7,549 nt of DNA from a virus (lineage: Duplodnaviria; Heunggongvirae; Uroviricota; Caudoviricetes). A program made the position numbers and the translations under genes. Where the stretch lies: IMG/VR virus record IMGVR_UViG_2675903665_000006. One strand, 5' to 3'. The notes beneath the pieces are model-generated. The model was not told where the DNA came from and searched no databases. It saw only the letters and a program-made list of their open reading frames with translations. This document shows, one piece after another, positions 1 through 7,549 of this stretch (position 1 is the first letter of the stretch; the number at the start of each line of letters is the position of its first letter).

Positions 1-192
1 GATGTTCAAATCATCTCATACAAAAAATACGAAAATCAGTAACGGCTAGAAATCATTCAATACATGCACTCTCGAAATTGCATCAGCCAACCGCAGAACG
101 TTATTTCAAAGCCTACTAGCTGCCTTACTTTTTTCCTCAATAACACGTCGCCAGCAGGAAACAACCTAATCCCTGTTTTGGGCCTCAAAGTT

Positions 193-211
193 GCTAATGA
201 TAATCATTTTC
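193..211 (+). promoter_or_regulatory. Fur box (iron-dependent repressor operator) upstream of sitA
   Basis: GCTAATGATAATCATTTTC matches the 19-bp Fur consensus GATAATGATAATCATTATC at 17 of 19 positions (counted by hand); lies ~80-95 bp upstream of the sitA start. Confidence 0.6.
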
Positions 212-235
212 ATTTTATATAGGTTGTGCTATAAA
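206..235 (+). promoter_or_regulatory. Putative sigma70 promoter core for the sit operon (weak -35 inside the Fur box, -10 TATAAA at 230-235)
   Basis: TATAAA at 230-235 is a 5/6 match to TATAAT, with a poor -35 about 17-18 bp upstream overlapping the Fur box and the MntR palindrome starting at the -10 edge. Hexamer choice is uncertain; other candidates exist. Confidence 0.25.
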
Positions 236-255
236 ACATAGCCGTTGCTATGTTT
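234..255 (+). promoter_or_regulatory. MntR-type operator (Mn-responsive repressor site)
   Basis: Perfect inverted repeat AAACATAGC-cgtt-GCTATGTTT seen directly, between the Fur box and the sitA start; it resembles the enterobacterial MntR operator as I recall it. Confidence 0.55.
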
Positions 256-287
256 GTTCTAATTTTGCTCACTATAGGTACTAAATT

Positions 288-1202
288 ATGCACTCGATAA
301 AAAAAGTAACCATGCTCTTGGGGGGCCTCGCACTCACCTGCTCGATCGCATTTCAGGCAAGTGCAACTGAAAAATTCAAGGTCATTACAACATTTACCAT
401 CATCGCGGATATGGCCAAAAACGTGGCGGGAGATGCTGCAGAAGTCTCATCTATAACCAAGCCTGGTGCAGAAATTCATGAGTATCAGCCTACCCCTGGC
501 GATATTAAACGTGCGCAGGGGGCACAACTGATTCTCGCCAATGGTATGAATCTGGAATTGTGGTTCCAACGCTTTTACCAGCATCTCAATGGGGTTCCAG
601 AAGTAATTGTCTCTTCGGGTGTGACGCCTGTAGGGATCACCGAAGGACCCTATGAGGGCAAACCTAACCCCCATGCATGGATGTCGCCAGATAATGCTCT
701 GATTTACGTCGATAATATTCGTGATGCGTTGATAAAATACGATCCGGCAAATGCACAAACCTACCAACGCAATGCCGATACTTATAAAGCCAAGATTACC
801 CAAACCCTTGCCCCCCTGCGTAAGCAGATTACGGAACTCCCTGAGAATCAGCGGTGGATGGTCACCAGTGAAGGGGCTTTTTCTTATCTCGCACGCGATT
901 TGGGGCTAAAAGAGCTTTATCTGTGGCCGATTAATGCCGATCAACAAGGAACACCGCAGCAGGTACGTAAGGTTGTTGATATAGTTAAGAAAAATCATAT
1001 CCCGGCAGTCTTTAGCGAGAGTACGATTTCCGATAAACCAGCGCGTCAGGTTGCGCGTGAAACCGGCGCACACTACGGCGGTGTGCTCTATGTCGATTCC
1101 CTGAGCACAGAAAACGGCCCGGTACCGACATATATCGACCTTCTTAAGGTTACTACCAGTACGCTGGTACAGGGAATTAAAGCCGGGAAAAGGGAGAAAT
1201 AA
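288..1202 (+). CDS. sitA: Periplasmic Mn2+/Fe2+-binding protein of an ABC transporter (cluster A-I, TroA/PsaA/YfeA-like), 304 aa
   Basis: ORF with an N-terminal signal peptide (basic n-region KK, hydrophobic core [19 protein letters not shown] cleavage-like motif). Candidate metal ligands in [19 protein letters not shown] and YVDSLS. Weak SD (AGGT, 8-nt spacer). An alternative ATG at 312 lacks the basic n-region. Confidence 0.9.
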
Positions 1203-2029
1203 TGATGCAATCTGCAGGCATTGTCGTTAATGATGTTGCTGTCACCTGGCGTAACGGGCACACAGCACTGCGCGATGCATCCTTCACAGTACCAAGTGGA
1301 TCTATTGCCGCTCTGGTTGGGGTAAACGGTTCCGGAAAATCGACGTTGTTTAAAGCGATTATGGGATTTGTGCGTCTGACCAGCGGAAAGATATCTGTTC
1401 TGGGTATTCCCACGCGACAGGCGTTACAGAAAAACCTGGTTGCCTACGTCCCTCAGTCAGAAGAGGTTGACTGGTCATTTCCTGTACTGGTGGAAGATGT
1501 GGTGATGATGGGCCGCTATGGGCATATGGGTATGTTGCGTATCGCCAAAAAGAGGGATCGTCAAATTGTCACCGATGCGCTAGAACGTGTCGATATGGTG
1601 AATTTTCGCCATCGACAAATCGGCGAGCTTTCCGGTGGACAAAAGAAACGCGTCTTTCTGGCGAGAGCGATTGCACAGCAGGGTGATGTGATCCTGCTGG
1701 ATGAACCTTTTACTGGCGTTGATGTGAAAACCGAAGCCAAAATCATCAGCCTGTTGAGGGAGTTACGCGCGGAAGGCAAAACGATGCTTGTCTCAACGCA
1801 CAATCTCGGATCCGTCACGACATTTTGCGATTATACGGTCATGGTCAAAGGCACCGTCCTGGCAAGCGGGCCGACAGACACCACTTTTACAGCCGAGAAC
1901 CTGGAGCTGGCTTTTAGCGGCGTACTGCGCCATGTCACACTTAACGGCTCGGAAGAAAGCATTATTACTGACGATGAACGCCCTTTTGTGGCTCATCGAC
2001 CGTCAGCGGTGCAGAGGGAAGAAAGATGA
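1202..2029 (+). CDS. sitB: ABC transporter ATP-binding subunit for Mn2+/Fe2+ import, 275 aa
   Basis: Walker [13 protein letters not shown] signature LSGGQKKR, Walker B ILLDEP, H-loop STHNL. SD GGGAG upstream; the ATG overlaps the sitA stop (TAATG). Confidence 0.9.
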
Positions 2030-2883
2030 ACGTGCTACTGGAACCCTTCAGCTATGAATATATGCTCAATGCGATGTGGGTCTCGGCGATGGTCGGCGGT
2101 CTCTGCGCTTTCCTGTCATGCTATCTGATGCTAAAAGGCTGGTCGCTGATTGGCGATGCGTTGTCGCACTCTATTGTCCCGGGTGTTGCGGGGGCATATA
2201 TGCTGGGGCTTCCGTTTTCTCTGGGAGCCTTCTTTTCCGGCGGACTGGCTGCGGGCAGCATGCTGTTTCTTAACCAACGCACCCGCTTAAAAGAAGATGC
2301 CATCATCGGCCTGATCTTCTCGTCCTTTTTTGGCCTGGGGCTGTTTATGGTGTCATTGAACCCGACATCTGTGAACATTCAGACCATCGTCCTGGGCAAT
2401 ATTCTGGCAATCGATCCGGCGGATATCCTGCAACTCACTATCATTGGCATTCTCTCGATCATCGTGCTTTTTTTCAAATGGAAAGATCTTATGGTGACCT
2501 TTTTCGACGAGAATCACGCCCGTGCTATTGGATTGCATCCGGGCAGATTAAAACTCCTCTTCTTCACCCTGCTGTCGGTTTCGACCGTTGCGGCGCTGCA
2601 AACGGTTGGTGCCTTTCTGGTGATCTGTCTGGTGGTGACTCCCGGAGCAACAGCATGGTTGTTAACCGATCGTTTTCCCCGCCTGCTCATGATTGCTGTA
2701 ACTATTGGCAGTGTAACCAGTTTCCTCGGCGCGTGGGTCAGTTACTTTCTGGACGGCGCGACAGGTGGAATCATCGTGGTGGCGCAGACACTGCTGTTTC
2801 TTTTAGCATTTGTCTTTGCGCCCACCCATGGGCTTTTGGCAAATCGTCGGCGTGCGCATAAGGCGCTGGAGGATCGCTCATGA
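2026..2883 (+). CDS. sitC: ABC-3 family metal permease subunit, 285 aa
   Basis: Highly hydrophobic polytopic protein; its start overlaps the sitB stop (ATGA), indicating translational coupling; same length and architecture as the adjacent paralogue. Confidence 0.88.
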
Positions 2884-3737
2884 TGGCATTATTACTGGAG
2901 CCACTGCAGTTCACCTTTATAAGTCACGCACTGCTGATTTCACTGGTAGTTTCCATACCCTGTGCGCTGCTGTCGGTCTTTCTGGTCCTGAAAGGTTGGG
3001 CACTGATGGGTGACGCGATGAGTCATGCGGTTTTTCCTGGCATCGTGCTTGCCTGGATTCTGGGGTTACCTTTGGCTACAGGGGCATTCGTCGCCGGAGT
3101 ATTCTGCGCGGTGGCGACGGGATACCTGAAAGACAACAGCCGAATCAAGCAAGATACAGTGATGGGGATTGTTTTTTCTGGCATGTTTGCCGCAGGTCTG
3201 ATCTTGTATATTGCAGTCAAACCAGACGTACATCTTGACCATATTCTTTTCGGCGACATGCTCGGGATAACCATCGGCGATATAATCCAGACGGTGATTA
3301 TTGCTGGGCTGGTTACACTTGTTATTAGCGTAAAATGGCGAGATTTTTTGCTGTTCAGCTTTGATTATCAACAGGCGCAGGTAAGCGGTTTGCATACGAG
3401 ATGGCTGCATTATGGGCTGCTGTGCATGGTCTCTATGACCATTGTGGCGACGCTGAAAGCGGTAGGTATCATTCTCTCCATTTCTCTGCTCATTGCGCCT
3501 GGCGCCATTGCGGTACTCCTGACACAACGCTTTCATATTGCGCTCCTACTGGCGACTGGCATATCGGTAATAGTGTCAATGACTGGTGTCTGGTTGTCCT
3601 TTTTTATCGACAGCGCACCAGCTCCGACGATTGTCGTCTTATTCGCGGTTTTGTTCATCATGACGTTTGCCGTTACCAGCATCAACGCACGCAAAAAGGG
3701 AAACTCCCATACACAGGATCTGTTATCACCCAATTAG
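2880..3737 (+). CDS. sitD: ABC-3 family metal permease subunit, 285 aa
   Basis: Paralogue of the preceding permease (shared motifs such as LKGW.L.GDA.SH..PG); its start overlaps the sitC stop (ATGA); stop TAG at 3735-3737. Confidence 0.88.
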   Translation: MMALLLEPLQFTFISHALLISLVVSIPCALLSVFLVLKGWALMGDAMSHAVFPGIVLAWILGLPLATGAFVAGVFCAVATGYLKDNSRIKQDTVMGIVFSGMFAAGLILYIAVKPDVHLDHILFGDMLGITIGDIIQTVIIAGLVTLVISVKWRDFLLFSFDYQQAQVSGLHTRWLHYGLLCMVSMTIVATLKAVGIILSISLLIAPGAIAVLLTQRFHIALLLATGISVIVSMTGVWLSFFIDSAPAPTIVVLFAVLFIMTFAVTSINARKKGNSHTQDLLSPN

Positions 3738-3784
3738 CACAACATCCGAGAACAGCAACACCCGATACTTTTTCCTGGCTTCCA

Positions 3785-3809
3785 GCAACGGGGTTTCTTC
3801 CTCCGTTGC
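3785..3809. terminator. Weak hairpin in the convergent intergenic gap between sitD and the small membrane-protein gene
   Basis: GCAACGG (3785-3791) and CCGTTGC (3803-3809) form a 7-bp stem with an 11-nt loop. No adjacent U-run on either strand (the nearest T-run is at 3823-3829), so any terminator function is doubtful. Confidence 0.2.
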
Positions 3810-3828
3810 ATATACAGCTCACCTTTTT

Positions 3829-4128
3829 TCACCCACGATTAACCAACAGCCAGACCAGCAGACACGCCACCACCGGCACAGCAAAATCCATCAGGCTTGC
3901 CACATCCCAAACACGCGGATCAAAACCGCCCCACCACGGCATGTTAATCCGCTTGCCATGCCCGAACATTTCAATCCAGCGATATTCTGCCTGGGTGTGT
4001 TCACGCGCAATGAAGAACGTACAACCGGCTATCGCTCCGTAAGCCCAGTTCCCGGTAAAAAGACCAATCAGTAGCTGCGCAGCCACAGCACAAAGAGCAT
4101 GAAGGAAAGGTGTTATATCCATTTTCAT
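3829..4128 (-). CDS. Small inner-membrane protein of unknown function, ~97-102 aa, two predicted TM helices
   Basis: Clean ORF with two hydrophobic helices (FLHALCAVAAQLLIGLFTGNWAYGAIAGCTFFI and FAVPVVACLLVWLLV) flanking a charged, Trp-rich loop (REHTQAEYRWIEMFGHGKRINMPWWGGFDPRVWD). The track start at 4137 is TTG; in-frame ATGs lie at 4128 and 4122, the latter with AGGA 5 nt upstream. The overlapping +-strand ORFs look like low-complexity noise. Confidence 0.55.
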   Translation of the reverse strand: MKMDITPFLHALCAVAAQLLIGLFTGNWAYGAIAGCTFFIAREHTQAEYRWIEMFGHGKRINMPWWGGFDPRVWDVASLMDFAVPVVACLLVWLLVNRG

Positions 4129-4140
4129 CCTACCCAATAA

Positions 4141-4167
4141 AACGGGGCGCTCGGCCCCTTAATATTA
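4141..4167 (-). terminator. Rho-independent terminator-like hairpin just downstream of the 346-aa fibre-like gene, possibly bidirectional
   Basis: GGGGC (4144-4148) and GCCCC (4154-4158) form a GC-rich stem with a 5-nt loop; on the - strand it is followed by GTTTTATT, on the + strand preceded by an A-run and followed by TTAATATTATTT. The stop of the 346-aa gene is at 4165-4167. Confidence 0.45.
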
Positions 4168-4190
4168 TTTAGACGCAAGCGCCGCCTCAA
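4162..4190 (-). promoter_or_regulatory. Putative sigma70 promoter for the small membrane-protein gene, embedded in the 3' end of the fibre-like gene
   Basis: On the - strand: TTGAGG (plus 4190-4185), 17-bp spacer, TAATAT (plus 4167-4162). Hexamers found by eye; unverified. Confidence 0.2.
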
Positions 4191-5205
4191 TTGCAGATAA
4201 TCTTTGTCTTAATTCTGCGTTTTCTTCTTCCAGTGCTGTTATTCTGTCGTCTGACTCTCTGACTACCTGAACAAGCAAGCCAGTAACACCAGAATAATCT
4301 ACAGTGTAATACCGTTCACCTTCTTCTCCATCTAATCCACTCCCGCCGTCTGGATATTTCATCATAGACCCTACGGCTTCGGGGATGGCTTCCAGGGTTT
4401 CTTGTGCAATAACACCAGCGTAAGGCATACCGTTTTCTTTAAGCGTGTATGTATAGCCGTTCATTTTACGAATGCGGTCGGTTGCATTATCGATCACCTG
4501 AATATTGTCTTTCAGATCCCGGTCAGAGCCTTGATTAAATGCACTTGCATTGCACGCGCCGTTAACCGTTAATTCGTAGGTATTGCTGGTAGTTTTCTGC
4601 GCATAGAACATATAAGCGCCACCATCAACACCGACTTCATAAACAACAGGACGGCTGGAGTTGCCCCACAATTGAGCAGTAACACCAGCATAAGCGGTTC
4701 CCTGTGTGTTTAATGTCATGGTTGACCCATGATTGGCATATTTGATCTGTAATGTGTCGGTGTAATCAAATTTAATAAGCGCGTTACTTCCACGCTTACT
4801 GTATGACATAAGGCAGTTACCCATTTTGAGGTATCCGCTGTCACCGGGAAAAATCATCGTACCGCCATAAAGGTTGGTAAAGTCCCAGCAAATGTTTGTC
4901 CCGTTATCGTTCAGGTTAAGGCGCGCCATTGCGTTACCTGGACTGTCTATCCATTTTTTGAGGTATAGTTCGCAATACGCATCCTCAACACCTGCCGTCC
5001 TGTGAGTTGAGCGGAGTTTTCTCCCAAATATAGCTCCGCTAGTTGGCAATACCTGCTGATACCATGAAGCAGACCAGTCACCAACGGTTTCATCTTTGCT
5101 GTCTACATATGATTTTGTTGCGTAGCTTCCTTGATCGTTTTTTAATTTGCTAACGTCGGATTTTAGCGTTTTGATGTCTTCAGGAATTACTGTCGATGTA
5201 GCCAT
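4165..5205 (-). CDS. Tail-fibre/tail-spike-like receptor-binding protein with a C-terminal Peptidase S74 intramolecular chaperone domain, 346 aa
   Basis: C-terminus SDRDLKDNIQVIDNATDRIRKMNGYTYTLKENGMPYAGVIAQETLEAIPEAV...ITALEEENAELRQRL fits the S74 auto-cleaving chaperone pattern (Ser/Lys dyad, GxIAQE, PExV, terminal coiled coil). LWGNSSRPVVYEVG resembles a P2 H-type fibre motif. SD GAGGA is 7 nt upstream of the ATG. Confidence 0.85.
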   Translation of the reverse strand: MATSTVIPEDIKTLKSDVSKLKNDQGSYATKSYVDSKDETVGDWSASWYQQVLPTSGAIFGRKLRSTHRTAGVEDAYCELYLKKWIDSPGNAMARLNLNDNGTNICWDFTNLYGGTMIFPGDSGYLKMGNCLMSYSKRGSNALIKFDYTDTLQIKYANHGSTMTLNTQGTAYAGVTAQLWGNSSRPVVYEVGVDGGAYMFYAQKTTSNTYELTVNGACNASAFNQGSDRDLKDNIQVIDNATDRIRKMNGYTYTLKENGMPYAGVIAQETLEAIPEAVGSMMKYPDGGSGLDGEEGERYYTVDYSGVTGLLVQVVRESDDRITALEEENAELRQRLSAIEAALASK

Positions 5206-5214
5206 TTTTCTTCC

Positions 5215-5496
5215 TCACATCCAGCCACGAAGTTGATGCTCAACAGCAACCACGTATTCATCGAATATTGACGATTTTTTTGCATCATTAATGATGCGCA
5301 CGTTTACAAAATATCCGTCTTCCTTAACACATACCGGCTCGCCATCTTCGGTAAGTTCTCCGGTTTCTTTGTACACGTTACCTATCACGTCAATAAGAAT
5401 ATCATCCTGCATCGACTCATCATCATAATAGCCGATACTCTCCATAAAGGCCGAAAAGTCGGCCCTGTCGACAAATTTGAGTGTTAAATCTTTCAT
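5215..5496 (-). CDS. Hypothetical acidic protein, 93 aa, translationally coupled to the upstream tail-fibre gene
   Basis: Its ATG overlaps the fibre gene stop (TAATG); its own stop overlaps the SD of the next gene; rich in Asp/Glu. No family recognised. Confidence 0.55.
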   Translation of the reverse strand: MKDLTLKFVDRADFSAFMESIGYYDDESMQDDILIDVIGNVYKETGELTEDGEPVCVKEDGYFVNVRIINDAKKSSIFDEYVVAVEHQLRGWM

Positions 5497-7102
5497 TAGA
5501 TTAACTCCCCCACCTGAGCATCAGTCAATGCCTTGTGCCATATTCTGAAATTCCTGACATGACCAAATAAATGACGTAACCCGGCTGTAGTCTGGCCTCC
5601 AATACGGATAATTGCGGTGTTCTGAATATAGGACCATGTGGCTTTTGTTTCGCTGGATATACGCCCGTTACTTACTGAGCACGTAGACTGATCTGACTTT
5701 ACACGCATCCCCATAACCATTTTTTCAAGCAATGCGTTTTCGTTTACCCGTCTGTTAGCTCCTCCAATATCGCAATAAGGAAATCCGTCATAATCTGTTG
5801 AACGACCGAAGCCAAGAATAATAGCCGCTCCGGTTTGATGACCACCGGTATCAAAAACACGTGGCGCTGCATTTGGCGTTTTATACCAGTTCTTATGTAC
5901 CTCACAAAGAACCGTAAAAGGAAGATTATAAAGGTTATTCTTGATTGGGACTGTCACCATATCGCTTGCGCGAGTGCTTGCAGTTATATCAGTTACAATA
6001 AATGACGAAGCACTTGATCCACCTTCCACTTGTGGAGTTGCGATATCCAGATAGTCTCCAGATGCTGTGCCTGAACCTTTTACTGGAGCATATTGAACCA
6101 TCGCACCAATCATGCTCTCTGTATCTAGTGCATTAATTGTAGCCTGATAGAAAATCCAACCAGTAGCCTCATCTTTTACAGCCTTTGCAATAATACGATT
6201 TGCTGCACCACCAGTCTTATCAATTACAAGTGTTGATAAATTGAGGTAAGCATCTCCCAAAAAAGTGTAAGTAGAACCATCATGATGTTCAAATCTTAAA
6301 CGACACCTTATATTTTCAACATCACTTCTGACACGGCATGAAATGGTCACATATTTTTCATCACCTGTGACATCAAATCCTTTACTGCCAGAAACCGTTA
6401 CGATATTAATCGCACTTGTCTGATCAATAAGAGTATCTTTTACAGTAAATCTCCCATAAGTAAAATTAAAAGAATCCGTGGATATTTCTGTGAGTTCCAG
6501 ATTGCCTGACTTATTCCATTTAGATGGATTTGTTGAATTAAGCAGAAGATTAGTTCTTTGCCCCTCAATAAGCAGGCCATCACGTTCAAATCGCGGCTCG
6601 TCAATGGCAGCCTCTGTCAGTACACCAGATTTATTAATATAGGTTGCTTTCGATGCGCGTTTAAACTTAACAACCTTGTCACCAGGCATCGTTATTTCAT
6701 CATCACCAATAACAATCTTTTTATATGATGGCGAAAAGCCCGTAATCATATCCAGTGAATCGTTAAACGGTATCCACACATCTGGAAGCGGCTGCAAAAC
6801 TTGTTTATACGGCTCCGCAGCCTGGCTTGCATACTCTCTGGCTGCGTCTTCACTTGCTTTTGCAGCCGTCTGGCTTGCAGCGGATGCTTTCGCCGAGTTA
6901 GCCGCCGCAGTCTCGCTCGCCTTTGCGTTGGTTTCACTGGTTTTTGCAGCTTTTTGACTGTTGGCTGATGCAGTGGCAGAAGAAGCCGCCGCACTTGCAG
7001 AACCAGCTGCGGCACTCTCGCTTTGGGCTGCAGCATCCTGACTGTTTTTCGCCGCAGTTTCACTGGCTTTGGCATTCGACCAAAACGGGAAGCTAATCGC
7101 AT
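5496..7102 (-). CDS. Stf-like side tail-fibre protein, N-terminally truncated: Ala/Ser-rich repeat region plus a C-terminal LamG/ConA-like lectin-type domain; start unresolved, possibly a pseudogene
   Basis: The body frame is open from 7115 to the stop at 5496-5498 and encodes ...AKASETAAKNSQDAAAQSESAAAGSASAAASSATASANSQKAAKTSETNAKASETAAANSAKASAASQTAAKASEDAAREYA..., typical of lambdoid Stf fibres, ending FGHVRNFRIWHKALTDAQVGELI (LamG-like tail). The only SD+ATG (AGGAG, ATG at 7102-7100) is one base out of frame; the first canonical in-frame start is TTG at 6797. Confidence 0.7.
6800..7080 (-). repeat. Degenerate short tandem repeats encoding the Ala/Ser/Thr-rich (AAKxSETxA-type) fibre shaft
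   Basis: Reiterated imperfect units such as cgccgcagtctcgctcgcctttgc and cgccgcagtttcactggctttggc on the + strand; translation on the - strand gives repeating A-K-A/T-S-E-T-A-A motifs. Confidence 0.5.
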
Positions 7103-7161
7103 AACAGTAACTCCTTTATGAAGGCATAAAATTAATAAAATTTTTTTCGCTTAATATCATC

Positions 7162-7203
7162 CCCCTCGGTTATCGTTAACAAAAAGACAACAATTCCGAG
7201 GGG
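7162..7203. other. Inverted repeat (8-bp arms, 26-nt loop) in the intergenic region upstream of the tail-fibre gene
   Basis: CCCCTCGG (7162-7169) and CCGAGGGG (7196-7203) are exact reverse complements; the loop contains GTTAAC; an AT-rich tract (7110-7150) follows on the - strand before the fibre SD. Confidence 0.4.
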
Positions 7204-7211
7204 AAGGACCA

Positions 7212-7508
7212 TCAAATCAGGTCAGTTCGGGACTGACCAACCTGCCGAGTGAAAAGCAGTAACAGCGCGATCAACTCATCAGCGTTTTTTCTGACAAGAG
7301 GAGTATGATTCTCCAGGCTATCCAGTAAGTCATGCAGCTCATTATTGACCTGGTGGAGCACCTTAAAGAGTGCACCAGAATCCCGGCAGCTCTGATATGC
7401 AAGATTTGCCTGAACAGCACGATTCTGCATGATCCCGATTTGTGCGATTGCGTCTTTCTGCTGATCGCCTGTTGGCTGATAAGTGGTGTTAAAAGAAAAT
7501 GCGCTCAT
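7212..7508 (-). CDS. Hypothetical protein, 98 aa, phage-associated by context
   Basis: ORF with strong SD (AGGAGG, ~5 nt spacer) before the ATG at 7508-7506; stop TGA at 7214-7212; predicted largely helical; no family recognised. Confidence 0.55.
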   Translation of the reverse strand: MSAFSFNTTYQPTGDQQKDAIAQIGIMQNRAVQANLAYQSCRDSGALFKVLHQVNNELHDLLDSLENHTPLVRKNADELIALLLLFTRQVGQSRTDLI

Positions 7509-7549
7509 AATTCCTCCTGTATCTGATGTTTTCAGCCCCCATCATCTGT

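What the first reader, a model, noticed from the sequence alone, without database searches (positions are those of the whole stretch)
5496..7118. Tail-fibre gene has no in-frame start: the SD+ATG is offset by one base from the body frame
I reverse-complemented 6781-7140 by hand. The Ala-rich fibre frame is open from the TAA at 7118-7116 down to the stop at 5496-5498 but has no ATG or GTG before the TTG at 6797. A strong SD (AGGAG) plus ATG at 7102-7100 sits one base out of frame and yields an Arg/Lys-rich nonsense-looking 118-aa product. This fits a 1-nt indel just after the start codon (an extra G after the ATG would give MAISFPFWSNAKASETAAK...), decay of a truncated fibre, or a sequencing error; a programmed frameshift is less likely. 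The gene also lacks the ~200-aa N-terminal tail-attachment domain expected of Stf-type fibres.
Basis: seen in the sequence. Interest (0 to 1): 0.5.

Follow-up and report, generated by a model that had tools for sequence, protein, structure and literature searches.

The report
Plasmid–prophage junction truncates tail-fibre gene
The tail-fibre gene has no start codon because it is a 5'-truncated fragment joined, about 25 bases after someone else's start codon, to a piece of an F-type plasmid; this is an ordinary rearrangement scar, not a one-base frameshift or a recoding signal.

Summary
The fibre frame is open from 7118 to 5496 and its first possible start is the TTG at 6797. A strong SD plus ATG (7102-7100) sits in another frame and gives a 118-aa ORF. 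The favoured interpretation, a 1-nt indel after the start codon, is wrong.

Window 7549-7076 is 100% identical to the leading region of F-type plasmids. It holds a 98-aa ORF, then the SD, ATG and first 9 codons (MRLASRFGR) of a 273-aa DUF932 gene. Window 7078-5400 is 100% identical, with no gaps, to an intact 792-aa lambda-type side tail fibre gene, starting at its codon 266. The two sources overlap by only 3 nt (CGA, 7078-7076). So the start signals belong to a plasmid gene. The fibre has lost 265 codons, including its PF08400 tail-attachment domain.

The rest of the window is the usual right end of a lambda-like prophage, with the known sitABCD moron. The window is an entire 7.5-kb contig of a draft E. 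coli assembly. The junction was found nowhere else. It is most likely a private illegitimate recombination (plasmid integration, deletion or capture). A chimeric contig cannot be excluded without reads. Interest is low.

The parts
7212..7508 (-). 98-aa ORF of the F-type plasmid leading region (WP_001272251.1; UniRef name 'YeiA'). It lies upstream of the DUF932 gene in plasmids.
   Evidence: 100% identity of window 7549-7076 to NZ_CP014112.1 and many other F-type plasmids. The exact protein was seen on at least 1000 contigs. No Pfam or NCBIfam hit.
7076..7116 (-). SD AAGGAG (7116-7111), ATG (7102-7100) and the first 27 nt (9 codons, MRLASRFGR) of the plasmid's 273-aa DUF932 gene.
   Evidence: The annotated start of the DUF932 CDS in L002 (3448) aligns to window 7102. 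Identity runs exactly 27 nt from the ATG and then stops. The full plasmid protein hits PF06067 at E 3e-53.
7076..7078 (.). Breakpoint: the 3-nt microhomology CGA shared by the plasmid and phage parents.
   Evidence: The plasmid match ends at 7076 and the phage match starts at 7078. Every chromosomal, plasmid and phage hit stops at this point.
5496..7078 (-). 3' part of a lambda-type side tail fibre gene (stf), from codon 266 position 2 to the stop of a 792-aa protein. It comprises part of the Ala-rich repeat stalk plus the C-terminal spike-fibre/lectin-like receptor-binding region. It has no start codon of its own and is a pseudogene fragment.
   Evidence: 0 mismatches and 0 gaps against WP_020244762.1's gene in E. 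coli CH4811. NF048003 GTA_spike_fiber E 3e-16. Weak match to PDB 6TB9 head spike fibre. PF08400 absent.
6746..7102 (-). Chimeric 118-aa ORF: 9 plasmid codons followed by the stalk region read in the wrong frame. Its TGA overlaps (ATGA) an in-frame ATG at 6749-6747, which gene callers use for a 417-aa C-terminal fragment (6749..5496).
   Evidence: No domain hits. The exact sequence was found on only this one contig.
5215..5496 (-). 93-aa ORF that always follows stf in this prophage module.
   Evidence: Same gene order in intact prophages.
4165..5205 (-). 346-aa second tail-fibre protein with a C-terminal intramolecular chaperone domain.
   Evidence: PF13884 Peptidase_S74, E 6.5e-14. Annotated 'tail fiber domain-containing protein' in homologues.
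3829..4122 (-). 97-aa hypothetical ORF between the fibre genes and the sit operon.
   Evidence: Called gene. Conserved position.
288..3737 (+). sitABCD iron/manganese ABC transporter operon, the moron at the right end of the lambda-like prophage.
   Evidence: ORFs, Pfam families, annotation. Reported on 70% of lambda-like coliphages in PMC6969025.

Best explanation
The region is a recombination junction, not a frameshifted gene. One parent is an F-type conjugative plasmid. It contributes its leading region up to and including the ribosome-binding site, the ATG and the first 9 codons of a DUF932 gene (window 7549-7076). The other parent is the right end of a lambda-like prophage. It contributes the side tail fibre gene from codon 266 onward, two further fibre-module genes, a small ORF and the sitABCD moron (window 7078-1).

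The two were joined by illegitimate recombination at a 3-nt microhomology (CGA). Possible routes are plasmid integration into the prophage, a deletion within an existing plasmid-chromosome cointegrate, or capture of the phage segment by the plasmid. The join is out of frame. The plasmid start therefore drives a meaningless 118-aa chimeric ORF. The fibre body, having lost 265 N-terminal codons including the tail-attachment domain and its late promoter, is a non-functional remnant.

Shown: the two sources, the exact breakpoint, the frame relation and the missing domain. Inferred: that the join exists in the strain's DNA rather than only in the assembly, how it arose, and that the fragment is inert.
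For: - Window 7549-7076 has 0 mismatches to plasmid NZ_CP014112.1. Identity runs exactly 27 nt past the annotated DUF932 start codon and then stops.
- 959 E. coli records carry this plasmid segment at >=80% coverage.
- Window 7078-5400 has 0 mismatches and 0 gaps to the intact 2379-nt stf of E. coli CH4811, beginning at CDS nt 797.
- All 5217 E. coli records, all PLSDB records and all 88 phage records that match stop at 7076/7078.
- The intact homologue carries PF08400 at residues 3-132; the window fragment does not.
- The gene order J-(lom)-stf-93aa-346aa-97aa-sitDCBA is seen in 179 E. coli chromosomes at >=80% window coverage.
- sitABCD is a documented lambda moron (PMC6969025).
- The window is the complete contig AOQY01000105.1 of GCA_000397685.1.
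- Inference from how overlap and k-mer assemblers work: a 3-nt overlap is too short for a k-mer graph to misjoin two replicons, so the junction should be present in reads.
Against: - The junction is unique. It is absent from 5426 complete E. coli genomes, PLSDB, GTDB species representatives and JGI metagenome contigs.
- The chimeric 118-aa ORF is on one contig only.
- It sits in a short 7.5-kb contig of a draft assembly. No reads could be inspected, so a chimeric contig or chimeric library fragment is not excluded.
- The predicted reciprocal junction was not found in the collections searched, but these do not include the source assembly.
Confidence: 0.8

Rival explanations
1. The junction is an assembly or library artefact. 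The strain has a normal F-type plasmid and a normal prophage, and the contig is a chimera.
For: - The junction occurs in a single short contig of a draft assembly and nowhere else.
- Both halves are 100% identical to common natural sequences.
- The plasmid leading region carries a perfect 300-nt direct repeat whose second copy ends about 130 nt before the point where the contig begins, so the region is hard to assemble.
Against: - Only 3 nt are shared at the join. Graph assemblers misjoin at shared k-mers of tens of bases, not at 3 nt (inference).
- A chimeric library molecule would have low coverage against two high-coverage true paths and would rarely become a consensus contig (inference).
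- The look-up tool reports the contig for 2 samples, but I could not establish whether these are independent.
Confidence: 0.17
2. A 1-nt deletion or sequencing error just after a genuine fibre start codon. Restoring one base would give a short fibre starting MAISFPFWSNAK...
For: Arithmetically, adding one base after the ATG does fuse the ATG to the fibre frame.
Against: - No fibre gene aligns to 7079-7118.
- That stretch, plus 430 nt further upstream, is 100% identical to a plasmid DUF932 gene start and its upstream gene.
- The intact fibre continues upstream of the breakpoint with 265 more codons of unrelated sequence.
- There is no gap anywhere in the 1679-nt alignment to the intact gene.
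Confidence: 0.01
3. Programmed -1 ribosomal frameshift from the ATG frame into the fibre frame, or initiation at TTG 6797 or ATG 6749, yields a functional short fibre.
For: - The 118-aa ORF's TGA overlaps an in-frame ATG (ATGA at 6749-6746), so translational coupling could make a 417-aa C-terminal fragment.
- PGAP annotates that 417-aa fragment as a protein in other genomes.
Against: - There is no X XXY YYZ heptamer in the correct register between 7102 and 6746.
- The two-frame arrangement has no evolutionary history, because it exists on one contig only.
- Any product lacks the PF08400 attachment domain. No tail genes are adjacent, since J and lom are replaced by plasmid DNA.
- The 417-aa annotation elsewhere is made on loci where the full 792-aa ORF is actually open, so it is not evidence of a real short isoform.
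Confidence: 0.02

Closest known systems
Lambda-type side tail fibre Stf ('prophage tail fiber N-terminal domain-containing protein', e.g. WP_020244762.1; isolated phages Tritos, PhiR63_1, HannyBb, 2G7b)
   Same: Codons 266-792 are identical to WP_020244762.1 and about 94-95% identical at DNA level to the fibre module of isolated lambda-like phages. It has the same downstream genes (93 aa, 346-aa S74-chaperone fibre, 97 aa) and the same sit moron.
   Different: It lacks codons 1-265 (the PF08400 domain and half of the repeat stalk), its own start codon, and the upstream J/lom genes. Plasmid DNA takes their place.
F-type (IncF) plasmid leading region: 98-aa ORF followed by the DUF932 gene, next to the SLT transglycosylase gene, oriT and traM
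   Same: 474 nt are identical to hundreds of IncF plasmids, including the DUF932 gene's SD, ATG and 9 codons. The same gene order is present in plasmid F itself, although F is only about 81% identical here.
   Different: The DUF932 gene is cut after codon 9. The oriT-proximal side (DUF932 body, SLT gene, oriT, tra) is replaced by phage DNA.
sitABCD module of ColV/ColBM virulence plasmids (e.g. pAPEC-O2-ColV)
   Same: A sit operon physically linked to IncF plasmid DNA, with 97% identity over window 91/100-3744/3764.
   Different: On ColV plasmids the sit segment ends about 7-27 nt after sitD. It carries no tail-fibre DNA and sits between toxin-antitoxin, IS and aerobactin genes, not at the leading region. 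Here 3.3 kb of prophage tail-fibre module remains attached.
stf loci that PGAP and gene callers annotate as split (partial N-terminal pseudogene + 109-120-aa 'phage tail protein' + 417-aa 'phage head spike fiber domain-containing protein')
   Same: The same alternative-frame ORF and the same 417-aa ATG-started fragment are called.
   Different: In the loci checked the 2379-nt ORF is uninterrupted (L007, L010, L012), so the split is an annotation artefact there. In the window the gene is really truncated.

Membership tests
Lambda Stf-type side tail fibre (functional gene) | N-terminal 'Prophage tail fibre N-terminal' domain (PF08400) that attaches the fibre to the tail | tested here: not met
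   The intact homologue hits PF08400 at E 7e-67 (residues 3-132). The window's 526-aa fragment has no hit.
Lambda Stf-type side tail fibre (functional gene) | Ala-rich repeat stalk plus C-terminal receptor-binding region homologous to known Stf proteins | tested here: met
   100% identity to codons 266-792 of WP_020244762.1. NF048003 E 3e-16. 189-, 42- and 21-nt repeats in the stalk of the intact gene.
Lambda Stf-type side tail fibre (functional gene) | In-frame start codon with a ribosome-binding site, located downstream of J (and lom) | tested here: not met
   The first in-frame start is TTG 6797. Upstream DNA is plasmid, not J/lom.
Frameshift pseudogene caused by a 1-nt indel | Collinear alignment to an intact homologue on both sides of a single-base gap | tested here: not met
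   Alignment to intact stf is gap-free from 7078 down and ends abruptly at 7078. The upstream side aligns to a plasmid instead.
Programmed ribosomal frameshift | Slippery heptamer in the correct register, and conservation of the two-frame arrangement among homologues | tested here: not met
   The only XXXYYYZ heptamer (CCCAAAG, starting at 7027) is in the wrong register. The arrangement was found on one contig only.
F-plasmid leading-region DUF932 protein | DUF932 domain (PF06067, about 227 residues) | tested here: not met
   Only 9 codons remain. The 118-aa chimeric ORF has no Pfam hit, whereas the plasmid's 273-aa protein hits at E 3e-53.
Lambda-like prophage right end carrying the sitABCD moron | Gene order stf - 93 aa - S74 fibre - small ORF - sitDCBA | tested here: met
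   179 E. coli chromosomes cover window 100-7078 in this order. Literature: PMC6969025.
ColV-type plasmid sit module | sit segment bounded at about window 100 and 3764, with no phage genes attached | tested here: not met
   ColV plasmid hits end at 3744-3764. In the window the phage DNA continues to 7078.
Real in vivo rearrangement (as opposed to a chimeric contig) | Reads or read pairs spanning the junction at normal depth | not testable with these tools
   No access to the reads of GCA_000397685.1. There is only the indirect argument from the 3-nt overlap.

The most novel reading that the evidence does not exclude
The contig may be a snapshot of an F-type plasmid that captured the sitABCD virulence moron directly from a lambda-like prophage by illegitimate recombination, with 3.3 kb of tail-fibre module still attached. 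That would be an intermediate in the phage-to-plasmid movement of sit that ended in the trimmed sit modules of ColV/ColBM plasmids. Alternatively, it may be an F-type plasmid fixed in the chromosome by a microhomology-mediated event that removed oriT/tra together with most of the prophage.
Probability: 0.25. Interest if true: 0.4.

Novelty: new member of a known kind. Interest (0 to 1): 0.15.

Why it matters
Mostly as a correction. What looks like a frameshifted or recoded tail-fibre gene is a truncated pseudogene at a plasmid-prophage breakpoint, so it should not be 'repaired', annotated as a fibre, or studied as a recoding site.

There is a minor wider point. If the junction is real, it physically links an IncF leading region to a phage-borne sit operon. 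That is one plausible route by which phage morons reach virulence plasmids, but a single 7.5-kb contig cannot establish it.

The side observation has practical value for annotation. An out-of-frame ORF of the fibre stalk circulates in RefSeq as 'phage tail protein', even for loci where the full fibre ORF is intact.

Tried and rejected
- **1-nt indel:** the alignment to intact stf shows no gap, and the upstream DNA is plasmid. Rejected.
- **Programmed frameshift:** no slippery site in register and no conservation. Rejected.
- **The same junction elsewhere:** not found in complete E. coli genomes, PLSDB, GTDB representatives or JGI metagenome contigs.
- **The reciprocal junction** (stf nt ..799 joined to DUF932 nt 28..): not found in complete E. 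coli genomes or GTDB representatives. These collections do not contain the source assembly, so this says little.
- **Identifying the strain from the literature:** no paper cites AOQY00000000 or GCA_000397685.
- **Literature on DUF932 in plasmid leading regions:** no hits in the library.
- **Rfam scan of the whole window:** nothing reached threshold.
- **Promoter and terminator scan of 6600-7549:** only weak consensus matches, not above the shuffle expectation in any useful way.
- **A real overlapping gene in the alternative frame of the stalk:** the open frame is reached in 4.6% of codon-order shuffles, and its database relatives arise from miscalled loci. Not supported.

Full report
**Observation.** On the minus strand, the frame that encodes the Ala-rich tail fibre is open from the TAA at 7118-7116 to the TAA at 5498-5496. 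Its first ATG/GTG/TTG is the TTG at 6797. AAGGAG at 7116-7111 is followed 8 nt later by ATG 7102-7100. That ATG is in a different frame and opens a 118-aa Arg/Lys/Pro-rich ORF ending at 6746.

**What is really there.**
- A megablast of 7549-5400 against 5426 complete E. coli genomes found thousands of matches, but none crossed one point. Chromosomal prophage hits all begin at window 7078.
- The stretch 7549-7076 matches F-type plasmids at 100% identity, under the features 'hypothetical protein | DUF932 domain-containing protein'.
- In plasmid NZ_CP014112.1 the DUF932 CDS starts exactly at the base that aligns with window 7102.
- A base-by-base comparison (alignment) shows 0 mismatches between window 7549-7076 and the plasmid. 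Identity stops 27 nt after the ATG: the window reads ATGCGATTAGCTTCCCGTTTTGGTCGA|ATGCC..., the plasmid ...GGTCGA|TATAATTC...
- The same comparison shows 0 mismatches and 0 gaps between window 7078-5400 and the intact 2379-nt fibre gene of E. coli CH4811 (792 aa, WP_020244762.1), starting at CDS nt 797, which is codon 266 position 2.
- The two parents share only CGA (7078-7076).

The SD, the ATG and the codons MRLASRFGR therefore belong to the plasmid's 273-aa DUF932 gene (PF06067, E 3e-53). In intact fibres the residues before NAKASETAAK are ...SSQTAAKTSET.

**What the fibre lost.** The intact protein carries PF08400 'Prophage tail fibre N-terminal' at residues 3-132 (E 7e-67). The window fragment has no such hit. 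It keeps the NF048003 spike-fibre domain (E 3e-16). It also has a weak sequence relative in the RcGTA head spike fibre, PDB 6TB9. The break lies inside the repeat stalk, which has a 189-nt unit in 2.3 copies and 42- and 21-nt sub-repeats.

**Context.**
- The window is the entire contig AOQY01000105.1 (7549 bp) of draft assembly GCA_000397685.1, in reverse orientation.
- Window 100-7078 is collinear with 179 E. coli chromosomes, in the order J - (lom) - stf - 93 aa - 346-aa fibre with Peptidase_S74 chaperone - 97 aa - sitDCBA.
- Isolated lambda-like phages (Tritos, PhiR63_1, HannyBb, 2G7b) carry the same fibre module at about 94-95% identity. Their matches also begin at 7078.
- sitABCD is a documented moron, present on 70% of the lambda-like coliphages in one survey (PMC6969025).
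- The phage part is itself a mosaic. Window 3836-7078 is 99.9% identical to a cdt-carrying prophage of CH4811. Window 1-4131 is 98.7% identical to another sit locus.
- On the plasmid side, the DUF932 gene normally lies next to the SLT transglycosylase gene, oriT and traM. The contig therefore keeps the side of the leading region that faces away from oriT.

**Mechanism.** The simplest account is illegitimate recombination at a 3-nt microhomology between an IncF plasmid and a lambda-like prophage. Three routes would give this product:
- a single crossover that integrated the plasmid into stf;
- a deletion inside a pre-existing cointegrate that removed DUF932-oriT-tra on one side and the prophage up to stf codon 265 on the other;
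- capture of the phage right end by the plasmid.

The fusion is out of frame. The plasmid start drives the 118-aa chimera, and the fibre body has no initiation signal of its own. The chimera's TGA overlaps an in-frame ATG (ATGA, 6749-6746), so a 417-aa fragment could in principle be made by coupling. That fragment would lack the attachment domain and there are no tail genes nearby, so I infer that it is inert.

**Real or artefact.**
- The junction was not found in complete E. coli genomes, PLSDB, GTDB representatives or metagenome contigs.
- The exact 118-aa ORF is recorded on this contig only.
- The predicted reciprocal junction is absent from the collections I could search.
- A 3-nt overlap is not the kind of repeat at which graph assemblers misjoin, which favours a junction present in the reads. 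This is inference, and I put about 0.17 on an artefact.

**Rejected readings.**
- A 1-nt indel is excluded by the gap-free alignment and the plasmid identity upstream.
- A programmed frameshift is not supported. The only XXXYYYZ heptamer is in the wrong register, and the arrangement has no conservation.

**Side finding.**
- The alternative-frame ORF of the stalk, without the 9 plasmid codons, forms a 50-member 90%-identity cluster of 109-120-aa proteins named 'phage tail protein' in NCBI and UniRef.
- In strain DLL7555, PGAP annotates a partial N-terminal pseudogene, this 109-aa ORF and a 417-aa 'phage head spike fiber domain-containing protein'.
- Yet the 2379-nt fibre ORF there is uninterrupted and differs from the intact CH4811 gene by one base.
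- The same holds for contig DBLELQ010000038.1, whose fibre ORF is 100% identical to the intact gene.
- The alternative frame is fully open in 4.6% of codon-order shuffles. I read these entries as a propagated annotation artefact.

**Verdict.** The favoured interpretation is refuted and the secondary one (a truncated, decaying fibre) is supported. The feature is an ordinary rearrangement scar that happens to be unique to one draft contig. Interest is low, at 0.15. The most novel reading still open is a phage-to-plasmid capture intermediate for sitABCD, or a plasmid locked into the chromosome, at about 0.25 probability.

Noticed in passing
window 6746-7075 (minus strand); L007 3004-3333; L010 2675-3004: The out-of-frame ORF of the fibre stalk exists in NCBI and UniRef as a 50-member cluster of 109-120-aa 'phage tail protein' entries (e.g. 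WP_425590943.1, CE10_0553). It is paired with a 417-aa 'phage head spike fiber domain-containing protein'. In at least three such loci (L007, L010, L012) the full 2379-nt stf ORF has no internal stop, so the split annotation looks like a propagated gene-calling artefact.
   Followed up: partly
window 6746-6749 (minus strand): ATGA overlap: the stop of the 118-aa chimeric ORF overlaps an in-frame ATG of the fibre frame. Gene callers take this ATG as the start of a 417-aa fragment, and it could allow translational coupling.
   Followed up: no
window 1-108 versus L008 8712-8820: The 108 nt upstream of the sit module in the window are 87% identical to the sequence that lies downstream of sitD in another sit prophage (strain WR3-3). 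ColV plasmid sit modules begin at about window 100. This suggests the sit moron sits at different places or between related flanks in different prophages.
   Followed up: no
window 3836-4131: The phage part is a mosaic. 3836-7078 is 99.9% identical to a cdtABC-carrying prophage (CH4811), where cdt replaces sit downstream of the same fibre module. 1-4131 is 98.7% identical to a different sit locus. The exchange point lies in the 97-aa ORF region between the fibre module and the cargo.
   Followed up: partly
L002 979-1278 and 2572-2871 (F-type plasmid leading region): A perfect 300-nt direct repeat in the plasmid leading region, partly annotated by PGAP as 'single-stranded DNA-binding protein, frameshifted'. 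The window's contig begins about 130 nt past the second copy, which may explain why the assembly broke there.
   Followed up: partly
window 7143-7196 (minus strand): An inverted repeat, CCCCTCGG ... CCGAGGGG, lies between the 98-aa ORF and the DUF932 ribosome-binding site. The terminator scan did not call it and no Rfam family matched.
   Followed up: no
L005 (NZ_CP082081.1, 'plasmid' pMS20655A, 150 kb, non-mobilizable): This PLSDB 'plasmid' carries typical chromosomal genes (bluF, bluR, ycgZ, ymgA, ariR) next to a lambda-like prophage with sit. It may be a misassigned chromosomal fragment. Several other very large 'plasmid' hits (377-542 kb, and one of 4.9 Mb) look similar.
   Followed up: no
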